The notes: generated by a model from the letters alone, not told the origin. A DNA stretch of 64,000 nt from Patescibacteria group bacterium (GCA_028707065.1 JAQTUZ010000005.1:3334-67333), one strand, 5' to 3'; shown: positions 1,019-46,946, counted from the stretch's first letter. Numbers and translations: made by a program.

Positions 1019-1125
1019 GAAACCCACCCCGTCCGCCCGGGGCGGACACCCCTCCTGGGGAGGGGAATAATATGAAACCCACCCCGTCCGCCCGGGGCGG
1101 ACACCCCTCCTGGGGAGGGGAATAA
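1019..1125. repeat. tandem pair of GC-rich double-hairpin REP-like elements (55-bp period)
   Basis: gaaacccaccccgtccgcccggggcggacacccctcctggggaggggaataa occurs at 1019-1070 and again at 1074-1125. Hairpin 1 is gtccgcc/ggcggac and hairpin 2 is cccctcc/ggagggg. It lies between ftsE and ftsX. Confidence 0.85.
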
Positions 1126-1140
1126 ATTTTAAATTGAAAA

Positions 1141-3748: not shown

Positions 3749-3897
3749 AATCAGTTGATTGGTTGATTGGTTGATTGGTTGATTGGTCTGCAAATTTTGC
3801 GCTAAAATCAATTAATTTTACAAATCTTTTTAAAATTTTCGAAATCTTTTGTCTCGTAAACCAAGTAACCAATTAACTATTCCACTAATCGACTAAG
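3749..3897. repeat. family A inverted repeat, variant with 4 tandem TTGATTGG octamers
   Basis: Left arm aatcagttgattggttgattggttgattggttgattggtc (3749-3788). Right arm aaaccaagtaaccaattaactattccactaatcgactaag (3858-3897). The core between them is AT-rich. Confidence 0.65.
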
Positions 3898-3996
3898 GCC
3901 GAGATAGCTCAGCTGGTATCCGCGACGTCGCCGCTTTGAAGCGGCGCGCGCGGACCCGCTCACGGCCTTTGGCCGATGTAGCGGGGAGCGACGGTA
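3898..3996 (+). pseudogene. partial duplicate of tRNA-Thr positions 1-32, interrupted by a 67-nt GC-rich two-hairpin insertion
   Basis: 3898-3918 (gccgagatagctcagctggta) and 3986-3996 (gagcgacggta) match the tRNA at 4037 exactly. Nt 3919-3985 form two stem-loops, tccgcg..cgcgga and cccgct..agcggg. No anticodon 3' half, T arm or acceptor 3' strand follows. Confidence 0.4.
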
Positions 3997-4036
3997 ACTT
4001 CGCATAGCGCTTATTAAATCGTAATGTTAAATTCAA

Positions 4037-4109
4037 GCCGAGATAGCTCAGCTGGTAGAGCGACGGTATCGTAAACCGTAGGTCAGGGGTCCGATCCCCC
4101 TTCTCGGCT
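4037..4109 (+). tRNA. tRNA-Thr (anticodon CGU)
   Basis: Manual cloverleaf: acceptor gccgaga/tctcggc, D arm gctc-agctggta-gagc, anticodon arm acggt-aTCGTaa-accgt, T arm agggg-tccgatc-cccct. CCA is not encoded and a T-run follows. The T-loop has C where U55 is normally conserved. Confidence 0.8.
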
Positions 4110-4121
4110 CATTTTTTACTC

Positions 4122-4667
4122 TCATTCGATAAAATAGTCCCACCCCGGTTGCCAGGCCTTATTTTTTCTCCAATCATCAGCAAAGGCTTGCGCCCAAGCT
4201 TTTTTATTCAAAATTACTTCCAAGGCGAGTTGCGGGGCTTTATGCCCAACAATGGCAATATTCTTTCCGTCGTAATTTTTTTTCAGAAAAACAATAAAGT
4301 CTTCGATTCTTTTTCTCACATCTTCATAACTTTCTCCATCGGGAAAATTTTCAGTAATAAATTTTTCTTGCAGAGGCTCGACAATCGAAGAAGCTCTGCC
4401 GTTATAATCACCGTAATTACATTCTCTCAATCTTTTATCAGTAAAAATTTTTATCCTATCCTCAAAAATTAATTTTGCAGAACTTGCCGCCCGGTCTAGA
4501 TCGGAACAAAAAACAACATCAAATTTCCTGCCCTTAATTTTATCTTTTAATTCTAAACATTGTTTGACACCCAAAATTGAAAGTTTTGCATCAGACCAAC
4601 CCGAGGAAATTTCTTTCTCATTATCTTCGGTTGTACCATGAACAAAATACGTTAGCTTGATTGACAT
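4122..4667 (-). CDS. histidine phosphatase family protein (phosphoglycerate-mutase-like)
   Basis: N-terminal YFVHGTTEDN, then SDLDRA, RECNYGDYNG, and a second His in IAIVGHKAP. The ATG at 4667 is preferred because the track start at 4691 overlaps the REP element. The canonical RHG reads VHG. Confidence 0.7.
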   Translation of the reverse strand: MSIKLTYFVHGTTEDNEKEISSGWSDAKLSILGVKQCLELKDKIKGRKFDVVFCSDLDRAASSAKLIFEDRIKIFTDKRLRECNYGDYNGRASSIVEPLQEKFITENFPDGESYEDVRKRIEDFIVFLKKNYDGKNIAIVGHKAPQLALEVILNKKAWAQAFADDWRKNKAWQPGWDYFIE

Positions 4668-4683
4668 AAATATTGTCGGGAAT

Positions 4684-4735
4684 AAACCCACCCCGCCTCG
4701 CCGGGCTCGGCACCCCTCCCGGGGAGGGGAATTTT
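4684..4735. repeat. GC-rich double-hairpin REP-like element
   Basis: aaacccaccccgcctcgccgggctcggcacccctcccggggaggggaatttt. It belongs to the same family as 1019-1125 and is nearly identical to 50831-50884. Confidence 0.8.
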
Positions 4736-5276: not shown

Positions 5277-6857
5277 TTATTGTTCCTTGCGGGTTTTGGG
5301 TGTTACCAGGAAACCCATATATTTTCCCAACATCAGGCGGGTTTGCGCGTCCAGCGCCGGAAAGGAACCGAAGAAAATTATTCCCACCGGCAGCAAGAGC
5401 CATTCGAAAACGATCATCACTCTTTTAAAGCGGCTGACCCCCACCGGCCTTCTGGGCATTAAAAGCGAAGAAACGATCGCCGAGATCAGCAAGCCGATCA
5501 TCGATAAGGTCATCAGGGTTTGCGTGACGCCGGGCAAATTGCCCGAAATAACCATGGCATTGAAAGCCTCGCCGCCGAAAAATAACGGCAGCCAACCAAC
5601 CACGCCGATGATCAGGGCGTTAGTCGCCCAGGAATGAAAACCGTAAACTTGGGTGAACATTTTATCCAAGGCGTCGCGCTTGGGCAAATCTTTCCAGCGT
5701 TTGACCGAATTGAAAATTAAATAGGGAATATTTTCCACTCCCCAGCCCCAGCGGCGCTGCTGCTTATACAAACTTTTCATCGTATTCCAGTTGTCTTGAA
5801 CCATAATCGAATCCATGGAGATCGGGAAAAAAATCGGTACGGCTCGATAATCGCCATTATAATGGAAATAGCAATGCCAATAGATCCGGGAATCTTCAGA
5901 AACCATGGTGGTTGACCAAAAACCGATATCGACCAAAGACCGCCAACTCATTGAATGGGAAGAATAAGTGGCCAATTTGTCCGGACGGATCTGCTGCATC
6001 ATCTGCCAAAAAGTATTGCTTGAGGCGGCGACGCGGGAAAAAAACGGCACTTCCCAGACATTATTATGATAGAGCGGAATAGGCTGATAGCTGACGCGAT
6101 AAGGCTTGGTCAACGTCAAAAAGTAATAAGTCAGGCAATGAAAAAAACCGGGATAAACCACCGTGTCGCTGTCGAAAACACTGACCAAAATTTTATCGTA
6201 GGGAATCTTTTCCGGGTCAATCAGTTCTTCCTTGACTTTCCGTCCCGCCCAAGTCTGATTTGCACCCTTGCCTTTTAACTCCCCGACGATCCCGTCAGGA
6301 TGAATGGTTACTAAAAAATTCCGGAATTTTCCGGCAAACTCTTGCTTGAGGATCGCCGCTTTATCCAAACCCTTCTGCCCTTCGCGTTCCTCGATCGCCA
6401 AGACATAAATAATATTTTCCACGGGAAAATGATCGTCAACTATCGACTGAATGCTCGAACGCAAAACTTCAACCGGTTCCACGGCCGTGGGCACGATGAC
6501 CAGGTGAATGACATCCCGATAAGTAAATCCTTTTTTAACCAAGCTGTCAGCCGGCAATTTACCGGCAGTGGCAATATTTAACTCTTCGCATTTGCGGCGC
6601 CAATCCATCGAACGCATTTTTTTCATCTTAAAATACGATGTGAACAGCATTACACCCAGATAAAGCACCAACAGAAGCCAATAGACATCAAAGGCGATGA
6701 TAAAATAAGCCACCCAAACCGGTTGGAAATAAGAAAAGATGATGAGAATCAGCAAAGTCCCCCAGGAAAAAGCGCCGGGAAAAATTTCGAGTATTCGATA
6801 AAATACGCGGTCGCCGCCGGTCAATTCAGTCGCCTTGCCGATTTTTAAATAATCCAT
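5277..6857 (-). CDS. membrane-embedded processive family-2 glycosyltransferase (cellulose/chitin/PNAG-synthase-like)
   Basis: Two N-terminal TMs, GT2 core with the DSD motif (FDSDTVV) and the Q(Q/R)xRW motif (QQRRWGWG), and several C-terminal TMs. Confidence 0.85.
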   Translation of the reverse strand: MDYLKIGKATELTGGDRVFYRILEIFPGAFSWGTLLILIIFSYFQPVWVAYFIIAFDVYWLLLVLYLGVMLFTSYFKMKKMRSMDWRRKCEELNIATAGKLPADSLVKKGFTYRDVIHLVIVPTAVEPVEVLRSSIQSIVDDHFPVENIIYVLAIEEREGQKGLDKAAILKQEFAGKFRNFLVTIHPDGIVGELKGKGANQTWAGRKVKEELIDPEKIPYDKILVSVFDSDTVVYPGFFHCLTYYFLTLTKPYRVSYQPIPLYHNNVWEVPFFSRVAASSNTFWQMMQQIRPDKLATYSSHSMSWRSLVDIGFWSTTMVSEDSRIYWHCYFHYNGDYRAVPIFFPISMDSIMVQDNWNTMKSLYKQQRRWGWGVENIPYLIFNSVKRWKDLPKRDALDKMFTQVYGFHSWATNALIIGVVGWLPLFFGGEAFNAMVISGNLPGVTQTLMTLSMIGLLISAIVSSLLMPRRPVGVSRFKRVMIVFEWLLLPVGIIFFGSFPALDAQTRLMLGKYMGFLVTPKTRKEQ

Positions 6858-6930
6858 TAGTTGATTAGTTAATTGGTTAATTAGTTTGGCTGTATTTTAG
6901 CTTATTTCAATTAATTTTTATTACCTGCTA

Positions 6931-6959
6931 TTGACTTTATTAAAATTTTATGATATATT
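6931..6959 (+). promoter_or_regulatory. sigma-70-like promoter for the small plus-strand gene
   Basis: TTGACT (6931-6936), 17-nt spacer, TATATT (6954-6959), about 70 nt upstream of the ATG at 7030. Confidence 0.55.
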
Positions 6960-7029
6960 AAATTTATTAAACAATAAAATTGCACTTACGCGTTCATTCC
7001 AACTCAATGATTTCTCAAGGAGGTTTTTC

Positions 7030-7296
7030 ATGGATTCTTCCGCTTGCATTTTCTTTATTGCCTTTTCGGGTTTTGGTTTCCTTTGTTCTGTTTTTTATTG
7101 TTGTTATACGATTAAGACCAGAAAACCCGGAGACAACGATATGCTTACGCCAGTTGTAATTTTTATTGGATTAATGTCTTTGTGTATCTGCCTTATGGCC
7201 TATTATAGATACATACAAACATCCAATTTACCTCAATCGGAAATGGCAACAAAACAAACAATTACGGTACCTCTAAAAACGCCGTTGAGGCGATAG
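7030..7296 (+). CDS. small (88 aa) two-TM membrane protein, unknown function
   Basis: AGGAGG (7018-7023) lies 6 nt before the ATG at 7030. It has its own promoter and terminator and two hydrophobic helices (ACIFFIAFSGFGFLCSVFYCCY, VVIFIGLMSLCICLMAYY). The track start at 6931 is a TTG inside the promoter. Confidence 0.6.
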   Translation: MDSSACIFFIAFSGFGFLCSVFYCCYTIKTRKPGDNDMLTPVVIFIGLMSLCICLMAYYRYIQTSNLPQSEMATKQTITVPLKTPLRR

Positions 7297-7320
7297 TGGT
7301 TATCGTTAACCAATCTCGAG

Positions 7321-7350
7321 CGCTCAGGATTTTTTCTTGAGCGTTTTTTT
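7321..7350 (+). terminator. intrinsic terminator of the small plus-strand gene
   Basis: 8-bp stem cgctcagg / cttgagcg (one G-U pair), 7-nt loop, then TTTTTTT (7344-7350). Confidence 0.65.
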
Positions 7351-7492
7351 AAAAACTTTATAGATATCGGTCGAAGTTTATCCTCGTGAAAACAGGAATC
7401 AATATAACACAACAAAAAAAATAAACGCCTGGATTTTCCCGACAACCTATTTCGCAAAAAAACTAAGTACCTAATCGACTAATTAACTAATT

Positions 7493-8152
7493 TCAGTTTT
7501 TTGTAAGCTTTATTTTAAAAATAACCGTACCAAAAAAATAAAGAACGTAGTAGCCGGCCGTAAAAACCAATAAATTCCGGAAATATTCCCAATCCACGAG
7601 ATACTTTAGCAAATTTTGAAAAATCAACAAGGGATGAAGGAAGATATCCCAACTATTATAACGCTCGATCAGGCCAAGCAAGACCGCCCAGGAAACAAAA
7701 GGAATCATGCCATAGATCAAATTACGGGCAATTTTAGCATTAAAAATCTTGGCCAATACCTGACGCATCTGGGACAAGTAAATAGCAAACAAAACCCAGC
7801 CCAAAACGCTGTAAACAAAAAAATACATTATCTGCCAAGTACCGGCAATACAAACGCTGTTTGCCGAGTCGGCCGGGCAAAAATTCAACAAATGGCGGTT
7901 GCCCACCACCAAATAGGCGGCATTGGGCAAAAAAATGAACCAAAAGAAAAAAATGATAACGGCCCGGATTTTCTGGCCGGTTTTTTTAAACTTGGTTTTC
8001 TGCCAATAAGAAAAAAATAACAAAAACAATCCGAATGGCACCATGGCCAAAAATAAATTCCAAACCATCATCAAAAAAGGATAATCATTGACGTAAAATA
8101 GCCCGAACGTGTCCACAATATTCTTGATACTAAAAAAATGAGTAAAACTCAT
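7493..8152 (-). CDS. polytopic membrane protein, DUF1361-like
   Basis: About 6 TMs. The motifs WNLFLAMVPF and FLPNAAYLV resemble the conserved DUF1361 motifs as I recall them. Confidence 0.5.
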   Translation of the reverse strand: MSFTHFFSIKNIVDTFGLFYVNDYPFLMMVWNLFLAMVPFGLFLLFFSYWQKTKFKKTGQKIRAVIIFFFWFIFLPNAAYLVVGNRHLLNFCPADSANSVCIAGTWQIMYFFVYSVLGWVLFAIYLSQMRQVLAKIFNAKIARNLIYGMIPFVSWAVLLGLIERYNSWDIFLHPLLIFQNLLKYLVDWEYFRNLLVFTAGYYVLYFFGTVIFKIKLTKN

Positions 8153-8163
8153 AATATTGGATT

Positions 8164-8234
8164 GAAATTAGAAATTGGAAATTTGAAATTAGCATTTTTA
8201 AATCTCCAATTTCTAATTTCCAATTTCAAATTTC
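8164..8234. repeat. intergenic hairpin built from GAAATTN words (family C)
   Basis: gaaattagaaattggaaatttgaaattag (8164-8192) pairs with ctccaatttctaatttccaatttcaaatttc (8203-8233), about 26 of 29 positions complementary. The left arm is C-free and the right arm G-free. Confidence 0.8.
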
Positions 8235-8238
8235 TTTT

Positions 8239-10146
8239 TTATTCAAAAACAATGTCTTCTCCTTCGGCCAAATCTTTTTCCGAATTTTTTGGCGCTTCAA
8301 CGGCTTCGGGCGGCTTGCCAACCATAGCTTTAGCGACGGTTGGATTATTTTCAACTTTCGATTTCCGGTCAAAACCGGGCAGTCCCGCCTTCGCCAAGGC
8401 TGCGGCGGACAAGCCGGTTTCTTTCAATTTGGAGAGCGAAACATAACCTTCCTCATTCGCGCCGGTAGAAACCGCTCCCCGAGCCAAAAGAGTTGATGGA
8501 GAAATTTGCGAAAGATCAATCCGATCTTTTTTTACCGGACGATCCGCGGCACCGTCGCGCTTTTTCTTTTTCAATTCCGACAAACAATTCTTGCAATAAA
8601 CCGGGCGGGCGGGATCAGGTTTGAAAGGAACTTTAGTTTCCGCCCCGCAAGAAGCGCAGCGCGCGTCAAATAAAACTCCGCTCGCTTTTGGTTCTTCTCT
8701 TCTGGTCGGTCGATCGGCCTTGGCCGTAGCAGTTTCGAACCTGGGCACGAAATTCGGCCGGGGCAGGGATTCGACTCGCGGTTTTTCCAGATTTGGCTTG
8801 GAAACCAGGCCAGTCGCGCTGATTGATGTTTCCCTGCCTGGCATAACCGGCAATCTGGCCGGCTCTTCGGCAAAATGAATTCTCATTATTTCTTCCTCAA
8901 CCTCGGCCTGCGGCTTAGCATAACTTTGCCGCGTCCAGTCAACCGCCTTTTGCAAATTATTCGTTCTTTCTTCATCGGTTAGGGGCGGCAAGCCTCGGGC
9001 GGAAAACGGCGGCGAAGCCACGCCGTCGATCATTAATTTAACATAAAATTCATATTTGGGAAGATTGAGAATGTCCTCTTCTTCAAAAATCGGCGTAAAT
9101 TCCTTGACCAATTCCTCGGCATCGATCGCTCCGACGCGGAAAGCGACCAGCGTGCCGACGTTGCCGAACACCGCCGCTTTAACCTCATCCGTCAGCTGCT
9201 CCATATATTGATGGGCGATGATCAGATTCAAATGATATTTTCTCGCTTCGGACAAGATCGTGGCGAACGATTCGGTCGAAAAATTCTGGAACTCGTCGAT
9301 ATAAAGATAAAAATCCTTTCTCTCCTTTTCTTTGATGTCCACGCGGCTCATCGCCGCCAGCTGGATCTTGGTGATCATCATCGCGCCCAAAAGCGCCGAA
9401 TTGTCTTCGCCGATATGGCCTTTGGACAAATTCATGATCAAAATTTTTCCCTTATCCATCGCGTCGCGCACGTCGATCGACGATCTGGTCTGGCCGACGA
9501 TATTCCTGATGAGCGAGCTCGACAAAAACTGTCCGACCTTGTTTTGGATCGGCGAGACCGCCTCGGAAGCGAATTTATCGGCATAGCTGGCAAATTCTTT
9601 CAGCCAAAAAGATTTGACCACCGGATCTTTGACCTCGGCCATTACTTTCTTGCGATAGTTCTTATCGGAAAGCATCTGGATGACCGAAAGCAAAGTGGAG
9701 TTGGGATAATCCAAAACCGCCAAAATGGCATTGCGCAAAATATATTCCAATCTCGGTCCCCAGGAATCGGCCCAAAGTTTCTTGAACACGCCGACCAATC
9801 CGGAGGCGACCAAATGCCGGACTTTGATATCGACCGCTTCGACAATATTGAAGGCGATGGGAAAATCAGTATCGGACGGATTAAAATAAATCACGTCCTT
9901 GATCCGCTCGGCCGGAATATATTGCATCACCTTTTCCGCCAGATCGCCGTGCGGATCGACCACGGCCACGCCGCGGCCGGCGCGAATATCAGCGACAATC
10001 ATATTCTCCAAGATCGTCGACTTGCCCATGCCGGTTTTCCCGATCAGATACATATGGCGGCGGCGGTCGTCGACTTTAATGCCGAATTTGATCTTGCGGT
10101 TGCGGAAGGTGGTTTCAGCGAAAGTTGTAATTTCACTATTGATCAT
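8239..10146 (-). CDS. VirD4/TraG/TraD-like P-loop ATPase with disordered linker and C-terminal CxxC-x17-CxxC zinc ribbon
   Basis: Walker A GKTGMGKST, Walker B FYLYIDEFQNF, coupling-protein-like IIAHQYMEQL block. C-terminal CASC-(17 aa: GAETKVPFKPDPARPVY)-CKNC. The ATG at 10146 is preferred over the track start at 10179. Confidence 0.75.
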   Translation of the reverse strand: MINSEITTFAETTFRNRKIKFGIKVDDRRRHMYLIGKTGMGKSTILENMIVADIRAGRGVAVVDPHGDLAEKVMQYIPAERIKDVIYFNPSDTDFPIAFNIVEAVDIKVRHLVASGLVGVFKKLWADSWGPRLEYILRNAILAVLDYPNSTLLSVIQMLSDKNYRKKVMAEVKDPVVKSFWLKEFASYADKFASEAVSPIQNKVGQFLSSSLIRNIVGQTRSSIDVRDAMDKGKILIMNLSKGHIGEDNSALLGAMMITKIQLAAMSRVDIKEKERKDFYLYIDEFQNFSTESFATILSEARKYHLNLIIAHQYMEQLTDEVKAAVFGNVGTLVAFRVGAIDAEELVKEFTPIFEEEDILNLPKYEFYVKLMIDGVASPPFSARGLPPLTDEERTNNLQKAVDWTRQSYAKPQAEVEEEIMRIHFAEEPARLPVMPGRETSISATGLVSKPNLEKPRVESLPRPNFVPRFETATAKADRPTRREEPKASGVLFDARCASCGAETKVPFKPDPARPVYCKNCLSELKKKKRDGAADRPVKKDRIDLSQISPSTLLARGAVSTGANEEGYVSLSKLKETGLSAAALAKAGLPGFDRKSKVENNPTVAKAMVGKPPEAVEAPKNSEKDLAEGEDIVFE

Positions 10147-11870: not shown

Positions 11871-11973
11871 GAATTAGTTGATTAGTTAATTGGTCAATTA
11901 GTTGTATCGTTTTATCAATTCAATAATTTAAGCGCCTCAACTAAGTACCTAATCAACCAATTAACTAATTATC
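11871..11973. repeat. family A inverted-repeat element
   Basis: Left arm gaattagttgattagttaattggtcaattagttgtatcg (11871-11909), 28-nt core, right arm caactaagtacctaatcaaccaattaactaattatc (11938-11973). The right arm overlaps the TAG stop at 11965. Confidence 0.8.
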
Positions 11974-12856: not shown

Positions 12857-13381
12857 ATGCTTAAAGCCCCAATAAAGGCGCTATTTCTGGCAATGATAGC
12901 CCTGTTTATATTTGCGGTAATAAATCCGGCTGCGGCCGAGGAGTTTTATTACCGCGGTCCCAAGTTGAATCCGCAAATCGCCGCTTCAGCTCTTTTTCTG
13001 ACCCCCATTCGGGAAAAAAATGGCAATTCTTTCACTCTGGATCTGGTGGTTGACCCGGCCGACGAAGAGATTAATACCGTCTCGACCGAAATATCCTTTC
13101 CGACCGACAAATTATCCTTGGAAAATTTGAGCAAAGGCAATTCTTTTTGCTCTTTTTTTGTGGAAGAAAAGATCGATAACGCTCTGGGAAAAATAAAAAT
13201 CAGCTGTCTCGCCCCTTATCCGGGCACGGACAGGATGAGCAATGTCATTTCCTTGACGTTCAAGCAGATCAACACCGGCACCGCTAATCTTAATTTAAGT
13301 TCCGATTCGCTGGTTCTGGCCAACGACGGCTACGGGACAAATGTCCTGAAAGATTTGGGCGGACAGACGATAGTCGATTAG
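12857..13381 (+). CDS. small secreted cohesin-like domain protein
   Basis: Signal peptide ALFLAMIALFIFAVINPAAA. The domain pattern FTLDLVVDP..INTVSTEISFPTDKL..GKIKISCLAPYPG..NVISLTFKQINTGTANLNLSSDSLVLANDGYGTNVL is shared with the N-termini of 13791, 15790 and 40856. Confidence 0.65.
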   Translation: MLKAPIKALFLAMIALFIFAVINPAAAEEFYYRGPKLNPQIAASALFLTPIREKNGNSFTLDLVVDPADEEINTVSTEISFPTDKLSLENLSKGNSFCSFFVEEKIDNALGKIKISCLAPYPGTDRMSNVISLTFKQINTGTANLNLSSDSLVLANDGYGTNVLKDLGGQTIVD

Positions 13382-13406
13382 GCAATTGGTTAATCAGTTA
13401 ATTAGG
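13381..13406. repeat. solo family A arm
   Basis: ggcaattggttaatcagttaattagg immediately after the stop codon. No obvious partner arm is nearby. Confidence 0.5.
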
Positions 13407-13446: not shown

Positions 13447-13490
13447 AAAAACAAATAAATAAATTCCCTTGTAGCGAGCATTGAAAAATT

Positions 13491-13592
13491 TTGGACAAGA
13501 CGCGCAGCGTATCCTCCCAAGGCGGACAGGGAAGCCGTGCCCCGCCAACGGCGGGGCTAGGCTTCCTAGCGGAGTGATAGGAAATTTGTCCA
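13491..13592. ncRNA. candidate structured RNA (about 100-nt GC-rich extended hairpin), class unknown
   Basis: Nested pairings: tggacaa (13492-98)/ttgtcca (13586-92), ggaagcc (13530-36)/ggcttcc (13560-66), ccccgcc (13540-46)/ggcgggg (13450+100 = 13550-56). It lies in a 409-bp convergent spacer with no credible ORF and is much more GC-rich than its flanks. Confidence 0.3.
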
Positions 13593-13630
13593 GCGCGCAG
13601 TTTTCCTTGTCCCGTCATTTTTGCGGGATG

Positions 13631-13656
13631 CGCCACTTTTTTTAAAAAAAGTGGCG
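13631..13656. repeat. perfect 26-bp palindrome
   Basis: cgccacttttttt|aaaaaaagtggcg. Possibly a bidirectional terminator-like hairpin. Confidence 0.6.
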
Positions 13657-13684
13657 AAGATTTTTGACCTTAAAACGAACCTTA

Positions 13685-13737
13685 ACACACCCCGTCCCGC
13701 CGAGGCGGCGGTCCACCCCTCTCGAGAGGGGAATTTT
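13685..13737. repeat. GC-rich double-hairpin REP-like element
   Basis: acacaccccgtcccgccgaggcggcggtccacccctctcgagaggggaatttt. Hairpin 1 is cgccg/cggcg and hairpin 2 is cccctc/gagggg. Confidence 0.75.
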
Positions 13738-13747
13738 ATATGCCGAC

Positions 13748-13779
13748 AAAAAACCACCTTTATTCAAGGTGATTTTTTT
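13748..13779. terminator. bidirectional intrinsic terminator
   Basis: AAAAAA, stem cacctt (13755-60)/aaggtg (13766-71), then TTTTTTT (13773-79). It lies 12 nt past the stop of 13791..15542. Confidence 0.6.
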
Positions 13780-13790
13780 AGCTGAAATGA

Positions 13791-15542
13791 TTATTTCAAA
13801 ATTTTCTCCACGTCCTTGATCTCTTTCAAAATCCTCTTGTTGGTGGCGTCGATATGCTCGTATAAAATATTTTTTACCCGGGCCTTGCCTTTGGCGAAAT
13901 CAGCGCGATTCATCTTAACGAGATCATCGATCTCCTCGGAGACGGCGATCTTCAGTTCTTCGATATTTTTCTCCAGCACATCTTCGATCTCCAGAGTTTC
14001 TTTCTTTAATTTCTTGCGCACGAATTCCCAGATCCAGATCAGGAGCGCGACGATCAGAATGATCACCAGGAGGAGGGAGACAAGCACCGTGAAATAATTT
14101 AAGACGAACGAACCGATGCGGGCAAAAATCGGCGCCGTGACCAGAAAACTGACCTTGGCGCTCGGCTTGCTCTTCAAGCCGTTGGGATTGACCGCTTCCA
14201 CCCAGGCCGTATAGCGGCCGTTGGCATAATTCTTGGACGCGACCAGGAACCAATTGCCGTCATTGTCGCTTTTTACACTATTAACTTCGGGTTGAGCTTG
14301 GCCTTCCCCTTGAAGATAAATATTGATCGTATTATTGGGATTGGCCGTGCCGCTGATGAAGAATTTATCGCCGGGTTTTATTTCGGCGGAGTAACTTTTG
14401 ATCACCGGAGTGGCCACGGCGGCAAATTCAAAGGTCAAATTAGCCAAGGTCCCGTTGCCGGCCAGATCAAGCGCCTTGACCGCGATCGCATGCGAACCGA
14501 CTGCCAAGTCGGTCAATTTATAAGAAGTTTTGTCGGCGGTTAAAACAATTGGCTCGGCCGACAAGCTGTCAATCAATATTTCATATTTATCCAAACCTGA
14601 TAACTCGTCAGTGGTCTGGAAATATAAAGTCGGCCAATCATTGGGGTCATCCTGCTTTACCGAAAGCGCGAAGTCTTTAGGCGGCGTGGAATCGATATTC
14701 ACGCGGAAATGCCCGGTCGTCCCCCAGCGCCCCTTATTGTCCTTGACCTTGACGTGAATGTACCAGCTGCCATCGTGGTCCGCGGTATATTGTTTGCTAT
14801 TGAATAAGCCATCGGGCACATTGCCCGGTTCAGTACCGGCTTTTTGATCAAAGGCAACGCTGACGCCGGTCGCGCCATCCGGCAGTTTCCAGGAAAAATC
14901 AGCAGTCTTGGCTTTATACCATTTGGTTTGGTCGGGATGAGTATCGGAAGTGATCACCGGCCGATTGTAAGCGGCCGTTTCCACCGGTGCCGGAGTCGGT
15001 GCCGGAGTCGGTTGGCCCGGGGCCGGTTTTTCAGGAGTCGGCGCTTCTACTTTGGCGGAAATGATAAAACTGGCCGAGCCCAGGCTGGATAAAATATTCG
15101 TGCCCATGCCGTCATTGGCCAAAACATCCCCGGAAGTAAAATTGACCGCGGCCGTTCCCAGCTTGATCGCCTGGAAAGTGATGACGCAGATCGTGCCGCC
15201 ATTGCCGGTATAACCGGGGCGGGGCACGCCGCCGCCGAATCCGATCGTTCCCGCGCCTGATGAAAAAGTCGGTTCTTCGGTCCAAAGGCTGAAAACCGAA
15301 CCCTTGGCGACGCTCAGCACTTTAAGCAGGGATTTATCATAAGTAAGCGACGCCTGCCCGGCATTGATGCTTTGGCCGCCGGTGCTGATCTTTATGGCCA
15401 CGGTGAATTTGCTGTTTAAAATTTTCGTCCCGGTCGAAGGCGAGAGATAAAGCGACGCACCCGCTGCCCAGGCCGGAGTCGCCAAAAACGCGCTGGCAGC
15501 AACTAACCCAACTAAAATTAACGGGAAGAAAAATTTTCTCAT
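13791..15542 (-). CDS. cohesin-like surface protein with C-terminal TM anchor and cytoplasmic coiled coil
   Basis: Signal peptide, cohesin-like domain (about 15047-15464), PT-rich linker PTPEKPAPGQPTPAPTPAP, Ig-like modules, TM FVLNYFTVLVSLLLVIILIVALLIWIW and a charged helical tail. It is a paralog of 40856..42604 with the same length and layout. Confidence 0.7.
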   Translation of the reverse strand: MRKFFFPLILVGLVAASAFLATPAWAAGASLYLSPSTGTKILNSKFTVAIKISTGGQSINAGQASLTYDKSLLKVLSVAKGSVFSLWTEEPTFSSGAGTIGFGGGVPRPGYTGNGGTICVITFQAIKLGTAAVNFTSGDVLANDGMGTNILSSLGSASFIISAKVEAPTPEKPAPGQPTPAPTPAPVETAAYNRPVITSDTHPDQTKWYKAKTADFSWKLPDGATGVSVAFDQKAGTEPGNVPDGLFNSKQYTADHDGSWYIHVKVKDNKGRWGTTGHFRVNIDSTPPKDFALSVKQDDPNDWPTLYFQTTDELSGLDKYEILIDSLSAEPIVLTADKTSYKLTDLAVGSHAIAVKALDLAGNGTLANLTFEFAAVATPVIKSYSAEIKPGDKFFISGTANPNNTINIYLQGEGQAQPEVNSVKSDNDGNWFLVASKNYANGRYTAWVEAVNPNGLKSKPSAKVSFLVTAPIFARIGSFVLNYFTVLVSLLLVIILIVALLIWIWEFVRKKLKKETLEIEDVLEKNIEELKIAVSEEIDDLVKMNRADFAKGKARVKNILYEHIDATNKRILKEIKDVEKILK

Positions 15543-15557
15543 AGCTCCTTGTTATTT

Positions 15558-15713
15558 AAATCCAAAATCTTAAGCACAAAATCCAAAGCAAATCCAAAAT
15601 TCAAATGGTCAAAACTTATCCAAAGAGCGACCATCTATTCGCTGACAAAATATTTTCAATTTTAAATTTTAGATTTGTTTTGAGTTTTGGATTTTGAGCT
15701 TTGAATTTAGGAT
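15558..15713. repeat. intergenic inverted repeat built from AAATCCAAA words (family D)
   Basis: Left arm aaatccaaaatcttaagcacaaaatccaaagcaaatccaaaattcaaa. Right arm tttaaattttagatttgttttgagttttggattttgagctttgaatttaggat. The loop is about 56 nt. Confidence 0.75.
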
Positions 15714-15789
15714 CCAGGGCAAACCGATTGTTTCGCGAAATCAAATCATCCTTATTATAACTTAAATTCAAGAATACGACAATTTAAAA

Positions 15790-18281: not shown

Positions 18282-18333
18282 ATAAAAATAATCCGGAACA
18301 TTAAAAAATTATCTGCCGAATGCCGCCGCTATT

Positions 18334-18510
18334 AAATTCGAAACGCGAAATCATAAATCCGAAATAAATTCAAAATCCCAAATCCAAAACTTTTTAATTT
18401 AACCCCTCTCAAGCAAAGGGATTCAGCCTTCGACCGATCCAAACGTTTTAGGATTTAGCGCTTAGAATTTTAGATTTGTTTCGGATTTCGCCTGCCGGCC
18501 GGCAGACAGG
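18334..18510. repeat. family D inverted repeat plus a 14-bp GC palindrome
   Basis: Left arm aaattcgaaacgcgaaatcataaatccgaaataaattcaaaatcccaaatccaaaac. Right arm gttttaggatttagcgcttagaattttagatttgtttcggatttcg. This is followed by ctgccgg/ccggcag (18492-18505). Confidence 0.7.
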
Positions 18511-18575
18511 GATTTTGTACTTCGGATTTAACGCCAGCAATATTCAGATTGCGGATGAACCTGGATTATATCTTA

Positions 18576-24734: not shown

Positions 24735-24804
24735 ATTTTATCACGTAACACGTAGCGCGTAACACACGACAGGGTGCGGTAGAAAAATTTTTTCTTTAAA
24801 ACTA

Positions 24805-24913
24805 TAAGTTAATTAGTTAATTAGGCACTTAGTCGTATTAAAACGAAGTCCGTAAATAATAATTAATATTGTCTGCTATTCAACTAATTAACTAATCAAC
24901 TAAGTAACTAAAA
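24805..24913. repeat. family A inverted-repeat element in the opposite orientation
   Basis: The arms taagttaattagttaattaggcacttagtcg (24805-24836) and caactaattaactaatcaactaagtaactaaaa (24881-24913) are the reverse complement of the arrangement at 27994-28104, including the core motif ttcgttttaatac. Confidence 0.75.
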
Positions 24914-26236: not shown

Positions 26237-26238
26237 CT

Positions 26239-26321
26239 TATTAGTTAAAAGTTGAAAGTGAAAAATTATTAATTTTATTTCTACCTTATAACTTTTAACT
26301 TTATAACTTTTTACTTTCTAC
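26239..26321. repeat. intergenic inverted repeat built from AGTTAAAAG / CTTTTAACT words
   Basis: C-free left arm ttagttaaaagttgaaagtgaaaaatta. G-free right arm ctaccttataacttttaactttataactttttactttctac. Confidence 0.7.
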
Positions 26322-27993: not shown

Positions 27994-28104
27994 AATTAGT
28001 TGATTAGTTAATTGGTTAATTAGTTTGACTATAAACAAACCTTGTTCTAATTAACGAATTTCGTTTTAATACAACTAATTAACCAATCAACTAATTGACT
28101 AATA
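27994..28104. repeat. family A inverted-repeat element
   Basis: Left arm aattagttgattagttaattggttaattagtttgac (27994-28029), 42-nt core, right arm caactaattaaccaatcaactaattgactaata (28072-28104). The right arm abuts the stop of the giant gene. Confidence 0.8.
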
Positions 28105-42604: not shown

Positions 42605-42614
42605 AATTTATAAA

Positions 42615-42738
42615 AATATCCAATAACCAATATCCAATACTTTAAACAATATTAAAATATAATAATATCTAAAATTTAAATTATTAAAATATTAAATTAT
42701 TTTTTTAAATATTTATTATTTGATATTGGATATTAATT
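42615..42738. repeat. intergenic inverted repeat built from ATATCCAAT words
   Basis: G-free arm aatatccaataaccaatatccaatac (42615-42640). C-free arm ttatttgatattggatattaatt (42716-42738). The loop is very AT-rich. Confidence 0.65.
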
Positions 42739-43197: not shown

Positions 43198-43212
43198 AAA
43201 TTTAAAAATTAT

Positions 43213-43350
43213 GAAGTTAGAAGTAAGAAGTAAGAATTTTTTTGAATATCTTTAAATATAAAAAATAAAATCCTAATCTTATTATAACACAAAAAAATCA
43301 AACAACAAAATAGCCAAATTTTTCGATATTTCTTACTTCTTACTTCTTGC
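43213..43350. repeat. intergenic inverted repeat built from GAAGTAA words
   Basis: gaagttagaagtaagaagtaagaa (43213-43236) pairs with ttcttacttcttacttcttgc (43330-43350). The loop is 93 nt and AT-rich. Confidence 0.75.
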
Positions 43351-43354
43351 TTTA

Positions 43355-45678: not shown

Positions 45679-45847
45679 GAATTAGTTAACTGGTTAATTA
45701 GTTAATTAGTTTACAACTTAATAAGTTTAGTGATATAAAAAAATTAAAATATTATTTCATGTTTAAAAATAAACAACAGTCTTATTCTTTCTTTATAAAG
45801 TTGTAAAATTGTAGACTAATTAACCGATTAACTAATCAACTAACCGG
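45679..45847. repeat. family A inverted-repeat element with ~100-nt core
   Basis: Arms gaattagttaactggttaattagttaattagtttac (45679-45714) and gactaattaaccgattaactaatcaactaaccgg (45814-45847). The core shares aaaattaaaatattatttcatgttt with the core at 46799-46913. Confidence 0.8.
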
Positions 45848-46764: not shown

Positions 46765-46946
46765 ATTAGTTAATTGGTTGATTGGTTAATTAGTTGTGCA
46801 ATAGAAAATTTTTAAAGGATTTGACTCGGCCAAAAATTTAAAATATTGTTTCATTTTTTAAATCATTAAATTTCGATCGCCATATTTTATTGAACAAAAT
46901 TGATGAACCTGCAGACTAAGTGCCCAATCAACTAATTAACTAATTA
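46765..46946. repeat. family A inverted-repeat element with ~115-nt core
   Basis: Arms attagttaattggttgattggttaattagttgtg (46765-46798) and gactaagtgcccaatcaactaattaactaatta (46914-46946). Confidence 0.8.

What the first reader, a model, noticed from the sequence alone, without database searches (positions are those of the whole stretch)
6856..7493. Family A (ATTAGTT) element behaves like a dispersed TIR-bounded unit: seven paired copies, both orientations, one with a gene as cargo
Arms with near-identical sequence recur at 3749-3897, 6856-7493, 11871-11973, 24805-24913, 27994-28104, 45679-45847 and 46765-46946, and there is a solo arm at 13381. The left type is attagttgattagttaattggttaattagtt and the right type is aactaagtacctaatca.ccaattaactaatt. 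The 24.8-kb copy is the reverse complement of the 28.0-kb copy, including the internal motif ttcgttttaatac, even though the flanking genes have the same orientation. That fits an insertion better than a locally evolved signal. The cores vary from 28 to 115 nt. In the 6856-7493 copy the arms are 570 bp apart and enclose a complete plus-strand unit: promoter TTGACT-17-TATATT, AGGAGG, an 88-aa two-TM protein and a terminator. This resembles a MITE family plus a cargo-bearing relative, but no transposase is visible.
Basis: seen in the sequence. Interest (0 to 1): 0.65.

Follow-up and report, generated by a model that had tools for sequence, protein, structure and literature searches.

The report
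Palindromic octamer-repeat element between CPR genes
The "ATTAGTT" arms are a real family of about 109-base hairpin-forming repeats that sit between genes of an uncultured Patescibacteria (CPR) bacterium and are gained, lost and flipped over evolutionary time, but the copy that seems to carry a gene is an old fixed site whose middle was filled by unrelated DNA.

Summary
Seven paired copies and one solo arm lie at the stated places, far beyond chance.

The family has a canonical 109-nt unit. It consists of a 31-nt arm of four tandem octamers (ATTAGTTR ATTAGTYR ATTAGGTA CTTAGTT), a 47-nt core (GTAT..GAAGTYCGT..) and a complementary 31-nt arm. The host is a Patescibacteria genome, and the canonical unit occurs only in this clade.

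Relatives at 80-87% protein identity show filled sites, empty sites (4-5-nt spacers) and sites holding other heptamer hairpins at the same gene junctions. One ortholog is inverted whole. So the family does spread and turn over.

It is not a classical MITE. There are no target-site duplications and no transposase in about 190 kb. Most cores are unrelated.

At 6856-7493 the arms are syntenic in distant relatives while the interior differs: an orphan 88-aa ORF here, a different 91-aa ORF, an RNA-like element, or nothing.

Family A is one of at least six tandem 7/8-mer hairpin families. Together they fill about 40% of spacers in this clade.

It works like REPIN/ERIC/Correia-type palindromic repeats, with arms built like cyanobacterial STRR or TAACTGA repeats. 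Function (probably hairpin punctuation at cistron junctions) is inferred, not shown.

The parts
27995..28103 (-). Canonical 109-nt family A element (31-nt arm, 47-nt core, 31-nt arm). It lies between the stop of the 4142-aa gene and the promoter of the 526-aa phosphatase-like gene.
   Evidence: Model R1 scores 102.7 bits on the minus strand against 77.7 on the plus strand. See also alignment A1. The stem has 28 of 31 Watson-Crick pairs. Relatives carry AATATCM-heptamer hairpins at this junction instead.
24804..24912 (+). Canonical 109-nt element, inverted relative to the flanking genes. It lies between the ABC ATPase and permease genes.
   Evidence: R1 scores 101.7 bits (+) against 51.2 (-). 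The core is homologous to the 28.0-kb copy in reverse. The junction is only 4-5 nt in L125 and in the P0002 and P0016 contigs, and holds other heptamer hairpins in L122, L123 and L152.
11873..11969 (-). Compact 97-nt element with a 35-nt core. The upstream gene's TAG stop lies inside the first arm, and a T-run and promoter follow the second arm.
   Evidence: R1 scores 95.1 bits. The ortholog in L126 (6229-6325) is the same element inverted whole, with a core match of score 19 against a null maximum of 12.
7461..7491 (-). GGTAC-type arm, flush with the TGA stop of the DUF1361 gene (7493-8152). It is the 5' arm of the split copy.
   Evidence: The same arm and the same following sequence (AGGTTGTCG..) occur at this junction in L128, L137 and L146.
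6856..6886 (-). A/C-rich arm in mRNA sense (AACTAATTAACCAATTAACTAATCAACTAAT). Its last bases overlap the ATG of the glycosyltransferase gene (5277-6857). It is the 3' arm of the split copy.
   Evidence: The lead-in AAAATACAGCCA plus the arm is conserved in L128, L137, L143 and L146, and the arm alone in L126.
6931..7352 (+). Interior of the split copy: promoter (6931-6959), AGGAGG, an orphan 88-aa two-segment membrane ORF (7030-7296) and a terminator hairpin. This is unrelated DNA inside an old junction copy, not element cargo.
   Evidence: There are no homologs, no Pfam match and no gene on record. Its strong SD is atypical for this genome.
45681..45844 (.). Long-core copy (102-nt core). Its arm ends 5 nt before the ATG of the 158-aa gene. 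The orthologous copy is present in relative G1.
   Evidence: (L396 10907-11084). The core shares a segment with the 46.8-kb copy.
46765..46944 (-). Long-core copy (about 120 nt) with a GGGCAC-type 5' arm 2 nt after the stop codon. The 3' arm ends 11 nt before the ATG of the FGE-sulfatase-like gene. It is absent at this position in G1.
   Evidence: 46.3 bits.
3750..3889 (-). Variant copy with five ATTGGTTG units in one arm and a 70-nt core. It lies between a tRNA fragment and the promoter of the S11 peptidase gene, and is absent in relatives.
   Evidence: 51 bits.
13377..13399 (+). Solo arm directly after the stop of the plus-strand 174-aa gene, followed by a canonical terminator. The syntenic arm is present in L126 and L123.

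Best explanation
Family A is a lineage-specific, non-autonomous palindromic intergenic repeat of a Patescibacteria (CPR) clade.

Anatomy. The unit is 109 nt: a 31-nt arm of four tandem octamers (ATTAGTTR ATTAGTYR ATTAGGTA CTTAGTT), a 47-nt core beginning GTAT..GAAGTYCGT, and a 31-nt arm (AACTAATT AACCAATY AACTAATY AACTAAT) that is complementary except at the conserved GGTAC unit. It occupies cistron junctions. It usually starts at or within a few nt of the upstream stop codon, and its units carry stop codons in all frames. It can fold, as single-stranded DNA or as part of the upstream transcript, into a 20-30-bp AT-rich hairpin.

Shown here:
- It is copied to new junctions.
- It is lost, inverted in place and replaced by other tandem-heptamer hairpins on the time scale that separates genomes with 80-87% identical proteins.
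- It leaves no target-site duplication.
- Its orientation relative to the flanking genes is biased.

Inferred:
- It spreads like REPIN/ERIC/Correia-type hairpin repeats, through a hairpin-dependent, non-DDE route or by recombinational copying. Complementarity of the arms is maintained by slippage and arm-to-arm template switching.
- It is tolerated, or used, as hairpin punctuation that ends or insulates the upstream transcript.
- The 6856-7493 copy is an old junction copy whose loop was invaded by foreign DNA (here an orphan 88-aa gene). It is not a cargo-carrying transposon.
For: Reality of the family: 34 matches against 0.05 expected.

Canonical unit: five copies of 108-109 nt from three different contigs or genomes, with the same arm asymmetry and core motif. 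Model R1 scores these copies 100-115 bits on one strand and 50-78 on the other. Arrays in other phyla score <=59 bits, about equally on both strands. One further canonical copy is in L106, and none is in viral contigs.

Host: Patescibacteria.

Gain and loss:
- The ATPase|permease junction holds family A only in the window. It is 4-5 nt in three relatives and holds three other heptamer hairpins in three more.
- The giant|phosphatase junction holds family A only in the window.
- The TraG|DUF1361 junction holds family A only in G1 and L145.

In-place inversion: 11873-11969 against L126 6229-6325.

No target-site duplication.

Orientation: the GGTAC arm follows the stop codon at roughly 17 independent junctions and is inverted at 2.

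The arms persist while the interior varies at the DUF1361|GT junction.

Arm-to-arm homogenisation: the asymmetry was corrected in opposite directions in the window and G1 copies of the FGE|158 junction. Both arms changed together (AGAAGTA to AGAGATA) around a conserved promoter at the HSP20 junction.

Context: 14 of 25 window spacers have an inverted repeat beyond all 50 dinucleotide shuffles, and about 11 of these have arms with period 7 or 8. Across the clade, 32 of 85 spacers have such a repeat.
Against: - No mobilising enzyme was found, but only about 190 kb was inspected.
- There is no direct evidence of transposition intermediates or excision footprints.
- Only the first 20 nt or so of the core is conserved, and most long cores are unrelated.
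- There is no covariation. The arms are too conserved to test pairing.
- Transition mismatches in 32 junction stems split 29 G.U against 35 A.C in mRNA sense. Sense and antisense folds have similar energies. So nothing singles out the sense RNA as the selected structure.
- T-runs after the 3' arm are inconsistent, and the stems are AT-rich, so these are not canonical intrinsic terminators.
- The orientation bias could reflect replication rather than transcription, because all nearby genes share one strand.
- Site counts rest on crude ORF calls and on my grouping of orthologous loci.
Confidence: 0.55

Rival explanations
1. Locally evolved simple-sequence hairpins with no copying between sites. 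Each junction grows its own arms by slipped-strand expansion of a 7-8-nt motif and of its complement, as with STRR/LSSR-type repeats. Similar octamers arise independently because AT-rich, stop-rich units are favoured.
For: - ATTRGTTR arrays occur in at least 120 genome loci from many phyla and in 95 viral contigs. About a quarter of them have an inverted partner.
- Control octamers of the same composition are also common in viral contigs: 28 loci for one control and at least 120 for the other.
- At least six other tandem-heptamer hairpin families fill spacers in this window.
- At the HSP20 junction both arms changed unit in concert, in place.
- Most family A cores are unrelated.
Against: - Non-orthologous family A copies share an exact length (109 nt).
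- They share the same one-sided GGTAC unit.
- They share the same order of R/Y variants. The arms at 6856 and 27995 are identical over 31 nt.
- They share the core motif GTAT..GAAGTYCGT.
Independent slippage would not reproduce these features. The 24.8-kb and 28.0-kb copies are new relative to five relatives, yet they share core sequence.
Confidence: 0.2
2. One reading: a classical MITE family mobilised in trans by a DDE-type transposase, with 6856-7493 as a larger relative that carries the 88-aa gene as cargo.
For: - The inverted arms are 31 nt and the elements are small, AT-rich and intergenic.
- Empty and filled orthologous sites exist.
- Copies occur in both orientations.
Against: - There is no target-site duplication above chance.
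- No conserved target word lies next to the ends.
- No transposase was found in about 190 kb.
- The arms of the 'cargo' copy are syntenic in distant relatives with different interiors.
- The 88-aa ORF is an orphan, and no second arms-plus-ORF copy exists.
- Orientation is strongly biased, which is unusual for cut-and-paste MITEs.
- An inversion occurs in place.
Confidence: 0.1
3. The elements are binding arrays for a sequence-specific protein, or DNA-uptake-type signal words placed as inverted pairs after genes. The model is the way Neisseria and Haemophilus uptake sequences form terminators.
For: - The arm sequence is conserved far more than pairing alone needs, including a conserved mismatch unit (GGTAC).
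- Solo arms followed by canonical terminators exist (L133, L135, L138 and window 13377).
- There is a strand and position bias of solo arrays in other phyla: G-type arrays after stops 31 against 7, and AAC-type arrays before starts 16 against 3.
Against: - ATTAGTT is not over-represented outside the arms: 4 observed against about 9 expected. Uptake words, by contrast, also fill coding DNA.
- Octamer spacing is out of phase with the DNA helix.
- No candidate binding protein was identified.
- Other junctions use unrelated repeat units.
Confidence: 0.07

Closest known systems
[quoted passage not shown] REPINs as defined by Bertels & Rainey 2011, PMC3116915; the other families are from my own knowledge.
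   Same: - Two inverted repeats of about 30 nt with a spacer form a hairpin of about 100 nt in ssDNA or mRNA.
- The elements are strictly extragenic and occur in many copies.
- Doublets occur alongside decayed singlets.
- They are non-coding and clade-specific.
- They are gained and lost between relatives.
- No target-site duplication was found here.
   Different: - Each arm is four direct tandem octamers, not a short palindrome.
- There is no GTAG or CGTC tag.
- No RAYT gene was found (not testable genome-wide).
- The stems are AT-rich.
- The host is a CPR bacterium. I found no description of such repeats in CPR.
Cyanobacterial STRR heptamers and long simple-sequence repeats (Mazel 1990 from my own knowledge; Mrazek 2007 as summarised in PMC4679880). 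This includes the Nostoc GAC(C/T)AAT x8 array that overlaps the recO start (bioRxiv 10.1101/2022.06.06.494920).
   Same: - Tandem 7-8-nt units lie in spacers.
- The unit is nearly the same word: (G/A)AC(C/T)AAT against AACYAATY here.
- The arrays abut or overlap start codons.
- Unit number varies.
   Different: - The unit is an octamer, not a heptamer.
- The arrays are organised as an inverted pair with a defined core and a fixed total length.
- One arm carries a conserved non-repeat unit.
TAACTGA direct repeats of Beggiatoaceae, Cyanobacteria and Bacteroidetes (MacGregor 2015, PMC4679880).
   Same: - The word is similar: TAACTGA against TAACTAAT, and units with AACTGAT occur in the 3.7-kb and 13.4-kb arms.
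- The repeats are intergenic, in 'forward' orientation within a few nt of start codons, and show sporadic presence between close relatives.
- Solo arrays in other phyla show the same forward bias, 16 against 3.
   Different: - The TAACTGA repeats are almost all direct repeats without an inverted partner (one indirect repeat among 170 sets in BOGUAY).
- A translational role was proposed for them. Here most genes lack a Shine-Dalgarno motif whether or not an arm is present, so that argument does not carry over.
MITEs (miniature inverted-repeat transposable elements).
   Same: Terminal inverted repeats, small size, non-coding, AT-rich, intergenic, and presence/absence polymorphism.
   Different: No target-site duplication, no cognate IS, a mostly unconserved interior, an orientation bias, and arms made of tandem repeats.

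Membership tests
MITE | Terminal inverted repeats bounding a small non-coding element | tested here: met
   The arms are 31 nt with 85-90% complementarity. Compact copies are 92-109 nt.
MITE | Target-site duplication flanking each copy | tested here: not met
   The best direct repeats at 13 copies are 0-3 nt, the same as for mismatched flank pairs.
MITE | Interior conserved among copies | tested here: inconclusive
   About 20 nt of the core (GTAT..GAAGTYCGT) is conserved in six 109-nt copies. Only two paralogous pairs exceed the shuffle maximum, and the other cores are unrelated.
MITE | Cognate autonomous IS with the same terminal repeats | not testable with these tools
   None was found in the 64-kb window or in about 130 kb of relatives. 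Whole genomes could not be read.
REPIN / REP | Inverted doublet of about 20-35-nt repeats with a spacer, forming a hairpin, extragenic | tested here: met
   All window copies are intergenic.
REPIN / REP | Each REP is itself an imperfect palindrome with a GTAG or CGTC tag | tested here: not met
   The arms are direct octamer repeats. Neither GTAG/CTAC nor CGTC occurs at the arm ends (sequences).
REPIN / REP | Associated RAYT (Y1/HUH) transposase gene flanked by the repeats | not testable with these tools
   No such Pfam family appears among the genes listed for the fetched loci or the window. The genomes are incomplete and were not fully accessible.
STRR / long simple-sequence repeats | Three or more head-to-tail copies of a 5-11-nt unit in non-coding DNA | tested here: met
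   Each arm has 3-5 octamer units. In other phyla 124 of 137 arrays are intergenic.
TAACTGA-type pre-start repeats | The heptamer TAACTGA as the repeat unit | tested here: not met
   The unit is the octamer AACYAATY. AACTGAT occurs only as a minor variant.
TAACTGA-type pre-start repeats | Forward orientation within a few nt of a start codon | tested here: met
   The 3' arms end 0, 5 and 11 nt before the ATG at 6857, 45675 and 46753. Solo arrays elsewhere are 16 forward against 3 reverse. The compact copies are instead followed by a promoter.
Intrinsic (Rho-independent) terminator | G+C-rich stem directly followed by a U-tract | tested here: not met
   The stems have about 25% G+C. T-runs are present after only about half of the copies. 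The scan of 6800-7560 found no terminator-like site.
Integron attC site | RYYYAAC ... GTTRRRY polarity after a promoterless cassette ORF | tested here: not met
   The polarity is the reverse, with GTT-type units first and AAC-type units last. The flanking genes are syntenic housekeeping genes with their own promoters. No integrase was found.
Any Rfam RNA family | Score at or above the family's gathering threshold | tested here: not met
   Only tRNA-Thr reaches the gathering score in the window. At E-value thresholds the element hits only generic long-hairpin miRNA models, far below their cut-offs.

The most novel reading that the evidence does not exclude
Family A may be the visible tip of an undescribed general architecture. 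In CPR bacteria, and in patches across Bacteroidota, Chloroflexota and others, cistron junctions would be punctuated by hairpins whose arms are grown from tandem 7-8-nt repeats. The pairing, not the sequence, would be maintained: families replace each other at the same junction, and both arms change in concert. The hairpins would serve to insulate neighbouring transcription units or to couple them. Alternatively, the canonical 109-nt element is propagated by an unknown hairpin-dependent (ssDNA) mobilisation system in CPR genomes, which are thought to be poor in mobile DNA.
Probability: 0.15. Interest if true: 0.75.

Novelty: new variant of a known kind. Interest (0 to 1): 0.45.

Why it matters
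- CPR/Patescibacteria genomes are small and streamlined, and their non-coding DNA is barely studied. Here about 40% of spacers in one clade carry hairpins made of tandem 7-8-mers. One family behaves as a copyable 109-nt unit.
- If the hairpins are functional, they define how these organisms end or insulate transcripts in genomes that largely lack Shine-Dalgarno sites and canonical terminators at these junctions.
- If they are selfish, they are a rare example of an active small repeat family in CPR, and a useful strain-level marker.
- Practically, the repeats break assemblies: a Logan contig ends inside an arm. They also create spurious ORF ends and starts, because the units carry stop codons in all frames.
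- Octamer arrays of this kind are common across phyla and in viral contigs, and two composition-matched control octamers were comparably common in viral contigs. Shared repeat words of this kind are therefore not evidence of horizontal transfer.

Tried and rejected
- Rfam found nothing for the element or for the neighbouring RNA-like element, at gathering thresholds or at E-value thresholds.
- The 88-aa ORF has no Pfam match, no gene on record and 0 hits in 1.84 billion representatives.
- A target-site duplication search gave nothing above the null.
- I found no conserved target word next to the left end of the element (flanks).
- RNAalifold on ten compact copies showed essentially no covariation: 1 of 19 pairs, and the covariation term was 0.02. 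Structure therefore cannot be argued from covariation.
- The wobble asymmetry test for a sense-RNA hairpin was negative: 29 G.U against 35 A.C. Folds of the two strands have similar energies.
- I tested whether the cross-phylum spread of the octamer is special. Composition-matched control octamers gave 28 and at least 120 viral loci against 95 for the real unit, so it is not special.
- I considered that arm-flush genes uniquely lack Shine-Dalgarno sites. Rejected: only about 3 of 29 genes in the window have one.
- I considered that the arm is a DNA-uptake-type word. It is not enriched outside the arms.
- I considered integron attC sites. The polarity is wrong and the genes are syntenic housekeeping genes.
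- An early impression from L122-L125 was that each genome has its own private repeat unit and that family A is unique to the window. L126, L128, L396 and the 23 metagenome loci corrected this.
- A literature search for such repeats in CPR found nothing.


Full report
**1. What is in the window**

The window is a gene-dense stretch in which almost all genes lie on the minus strand. The gene content is typical of Patescibacteria/CPR: cohesin/dockerin-like and Big_13 surface proteins, two giant proteins of 4142 and 3898 aa, FtsEX, DivIC, DUF1361 and many proteins with no family. Homologs of the permease and of the DUF1361 protein are named by their sources 'Patescibacteria group bacterium' and 'Candidatus Falkowbacteria'. 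An identical DUF1361 protein lies on an 82.8-kb NCBI contig.

The repeat is real. ATTRGTTRATTRGTT with at most 1 mismatch matches 34 times against 0.05 expected. A 23-mer matches 15 times against 0 expected.

Read in mRNA sense (minus strand), every copy has the same layout:
- the upstream stop codon;
- an arm of (R)ATT(R)GTT octamers;
- an AT-rich core;
- an arm of AACYAATY octamers;
- after 0-90 nt, the next start codon.

The units contain TAG, TAA or TGA at an 8-nt period. Every reading frame is therefore closed inside an arm. This is part of the reason ORFs end flush with the arms.

**2. The family has a defined unit**

An exact-pattern scan of JGI metagenomes with the GGTAC-type arm found 23 loci from a few related samples. 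Together with the window and with syntenic relatives, these show a canonical element of 108-109 nt. The copies are w27994, w24805, L131, L136 and L141, and L148 is the same element as L136. The parts are:
- arm ATTAGTTR ATTAGTYR ATTAGGTA CTTAGTT;
- a 47-nt core that starts GTAT..(A)A..GAAGTYCGT;
- arm AACTAATT AACCAATY AACTAATY AACTAAT.

Shorter forms have cores of 30-42 nt (w11871, L126, L132, L142).

A covariance model built from ten copies (R1) scores canonical copies 100-115 bits on one strand and 50-78 on the other. It also finds further copies, including two adjacent ones in L141. In 198 loci from other phyla and from viral contigs, the best scores are <=59 bits and about equal on both strands, which means arms only. 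The single exception is L106, at 90.8 bits, in a GTDB record labelled Nanoarchaeia.

The conserved, one-sided GGTAC unit and the oriented core make this a copyable element. It is not merely a simple repeat.

**3. Behaviour in relatives**

Syntenic loci were fetched through homologs of three window proteins.

| Junction | Window | Relatives |
|---|---|---|
| ABC ATPase / permease | 109-nt A element | 4-5-nt spacer in L125 and in the P0002 and P0016 contigs; hairpins of unrelated heptamers in L122 (CGTATYT), L123 (GTATWWR) and L152 (CACRTAA) |
| Giant / phosphatase | Family A | AATATCM hairpins in L122 and L123; an AAAGTTR array in L152 |
| TraG / DUF1361 | GAAATTK hairpin | Family A pair in G1 (L126) and L145 |
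| 266-aa / 507-aa | Family A | Family A in G1, but as the complete reverse complement of the window copy between identical flanks; core match score 19 against a null maximum of 12 |
| FGE / 158-aa | Family A | Orthologous family A copy in G1 |

The copy upstream of the FGE gene is window-specific and shares core sequence with its neighbour.

The family is therefore gained, lost, replaced and flipped. Flipping in place means that 'both orientations' is not in itself evidence of insertion.

**4. The 6856-7493 copy**

The plus-strand unit is as described:
- promoter at 6931-6959;
- AGGAGG and an 88-aa ORF with two hydrophobic segments;
- a terminator.

However, the arms are ancestral at this junction.
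- L128, whose DUF1361 protein is 63% identical, has the same GGTAC arm flush with the stop codon. It also has the same following sequence and the same AAAATACAGCCA lead-in to the 3' arm. Its interior encodes a different antisense 91-aa ORF.
- L137 has only 103 nt between the arms.
- L146 has 924 nt, with a 149-aa ORF and an RNA-like element.
- L126 keeps only the 3' arm, and L127 a decayed 5' arm. Both carry the RNA-like element, in opposite orientations.

The 88-aa protein has no homolog among 1.84 billion representatives, no Pfam match and no gene on record. Its strong Shine-Dalgarno site is atypical in a genome where only about 3 of 29 genes have one.

The simplest reading is that the loop of an old junction hairpin is a permissive or fragile place that accumulates foreign DNA. 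The arms do not move with the gene.

**5. Tests of the transposon model**

- Flanks of 13 copies show no direct repeats beyond those of mismatched flank pairs.
- No common word precedes the left end.
- No transposase appears among the window's proteins or among the genes of the fetched relatives. One serine-recombinase pair lies far from any copy in L126.
- Only two paralogous core pairs exceed the shuffle maximum.
- Orientation is biased. The GGTAC arm is the post-stop arm at about 17 independent junctions and is inverted at 2. Several metagenome loci are the same junction in different genomes, so I counted junctions, not loci.

This profile fits hairpin repeats of the REPIN/ERIC/Correia kind better than a cut-and-paste MITE. 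It does not identify the mechanism.

**6. Context: a genome full of tandem-repeat hairpins**

In the window, 14 of 25 spacers have an inverted repeat stronger than in all 50 dinucleotide shuffles. About 11 of these have arms with period 7 or 8, from at least six families. Across the clade, 32 of 85 spacers qualify.

At the HSP20 junction, the window has (AGAAGTA)n/(TACTTCT)n arms and G1 has (AGAGATA)n/(TATCTCT)n arms. Both surround the same TGTTATAAT promoter. This is a concerted change of both arms. At the FGE|158 junction, the arm asymmetry was erased in opposite directions in the two genomes.

Either selection or arm-to-arm template switching keeps the arms complementary. Short-core copies are followed by a conserved promoter. 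Long-core copies have the 3' arm next to the start codon, and at the HSP20 junction a conserved promoter lies between the arms.

**7. RNA or DNA?**

The evidence does not decide.
- Stems are 88% Watson-Crick. Transition mismatches split 29 G.U against 35 A.C in mRNA sense.
- Sense and antisense folds have similar energies.
- There is no covariation.
- The stems are AT-rich, and T-runs follow only some copies. These are not canonical terminators.
- The orientation bias argues for a strand-specific constraint. But transcription and replication cannot be separated here, because all the genes share one strand.

I therefore give 'hairpin punctuation or insulation of cistrons' as the most likely role, and I mark it as inferred.

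**8. Other phyla**

The octamer array occurs in at least 120 loci of GTDB species representatives. These span Bacteroidota, Ignavibacteriota, Chloroflexota, WOR-3, Omnitrophota, Planctomycetota, CPR and others. About 90% of the arrays are intergenic.

Solo arrays show a strand bias relative to genes. G-type arrays directly after stops number 31 against 7. AAC-type arrays directly before starts number 16 against 3 (ORF calls were crude).

In viral contigs, control octamers of the same composition are comparably common: 28 and at least 120 loci against 95. The spread therefore reflects the general ease with which such arrays arise, not shared descent.

The words are close to known ones:
- the Nostoc GAC(C/T)AAT array that overlaps the recO start;
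- STRR2 TTGGTCA (my own knowledge);
- the TAACTGA repeats described just upstream of start codons in Beggiatoaceae, Cyanobacteria and Bacteroidetes.

**9. Verdict**

Family A is a new variant of a known kind: a palindromic intergenic repeat with STRR-like tandem-octamer arms, in a CPR clade. The claim that one copy carries a gene as cargo is not supported. Interest is moderate. The element itself is ordinary in kind. What deserves follow-up with complete genomes and transcript-end mapping is the density of these hairpins, their family turnover, and the concerted evolution of their arms in CPR genomes.

Noticed in passing
window 13470-13680 (minus sense); L126 10690-10880; L127 10740-10900 (reverse); L146 and L143 interiors: A structured-looking element of about 170-200 nt: a terminator-like hairpin GCCACTTTTTTTAGAAAAAAGTGGC, then a long closing helix GCGCGCTGGACAAATTTCC...GGAAATTTTCCAATGCGCGC. 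It recurs in different spacers and in different orientations among relatives, often between family A arms. Rfam gives only a spurious 23.7-bit RalA hit. It may be an undescribed small RNA gene or another mobile unit.
   Followed up: partly
window 1049-1140 (two tandem copies), 4713, 13716, 50705, 50861: A second dispersed family: a GC-rich element of about 50 nt made of two short hairpins (CCCCTCC-N4-GGAGGGGTG, then GNCCGCC-N4-GGCGGNC GGGGTG). The same element directly abuts family A arms in metagenome loci L133, L138, L143, L147 and L149.
   Followed up: partly
window 43198-43354 and L396 13321-13443: Orthologous hairpins around the HSP20 promoter use different heptamers: AGAAGTA in the window and AGAGATA in the relative. 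The change is in every unit of both arms, while the promoter between them (TGTTATAAT) is conserved. This is concerted evolution of the arms.
   Followed up: partly
window 8153-8238, 15543-15789, 18282-18575, 26237-26321, 42605-42732: Further tandem-heptamer inverted-repeat hairpins of other families (GAAATTK, CAAAACT/AAATCTA, AAATCCGA, AAAGTWR, AATATCM) fill other spacers. All but the AATATCM hairpin at 42605-42732 exceed every one of 50 dinucleotide shuffles.
   Followed up: partly
window 3897-4691; L126 12976-13523: tRNA-Thr(CGT) at 4037-4110 is followed by a partial second copy of its 5' part (about 3897-3990). A histidine-phosphatase gene (4122-4691) is absent from this junction in relatives. 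In L126 the equivalent tRNA appears split by an insert that carries another tRNA. This looks like integration or rearrangement at a tRNA gene.
   Followed up: no
window, all gene starts: Only about 3 of 29 genes have a Shine-Dalgarno-like motif within 20 nt of the start. The orphan 88-aa ORF is an exception, with AGGAGG and a near-consensus sigma-70 promoter.
   Followed up: partly
L169 (IMGVR_UViG_3300020160_001188), 1-600 and 13579-14178: A 14.2-kb viral contig (22% G+C) has perfect terminal inverted repeats of at least 600 nt. Their outer 330 nt or so are (TTGGTTWA)n octamer arrays, giving telomere-like ends built from the same kind of unit.
   Followed up: partly
window 24735-24800; L125 spacer between the 204-aa and 592-aa genes; L152 9832-10000: Another dispersed unit, TTTCTACCGCACC followed by (GTTACGY)n heptamers, lies next to the 24.8-kb A element and at other junctions in relatives. 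In L152 the same heptamer forms the hairpin at the ATPase|permease junction. The A element in the window therefore seems to have replaced the 5' half of an older hairpin.
   Followed up: partly
L001 (Logan SRR22315508 contig) = window 6859-8884: An independent 2-kb assembly of the same sequence is 100% identical and ends inside the family A arm. The repeats break short-read assemblies.
   Followed up: yes
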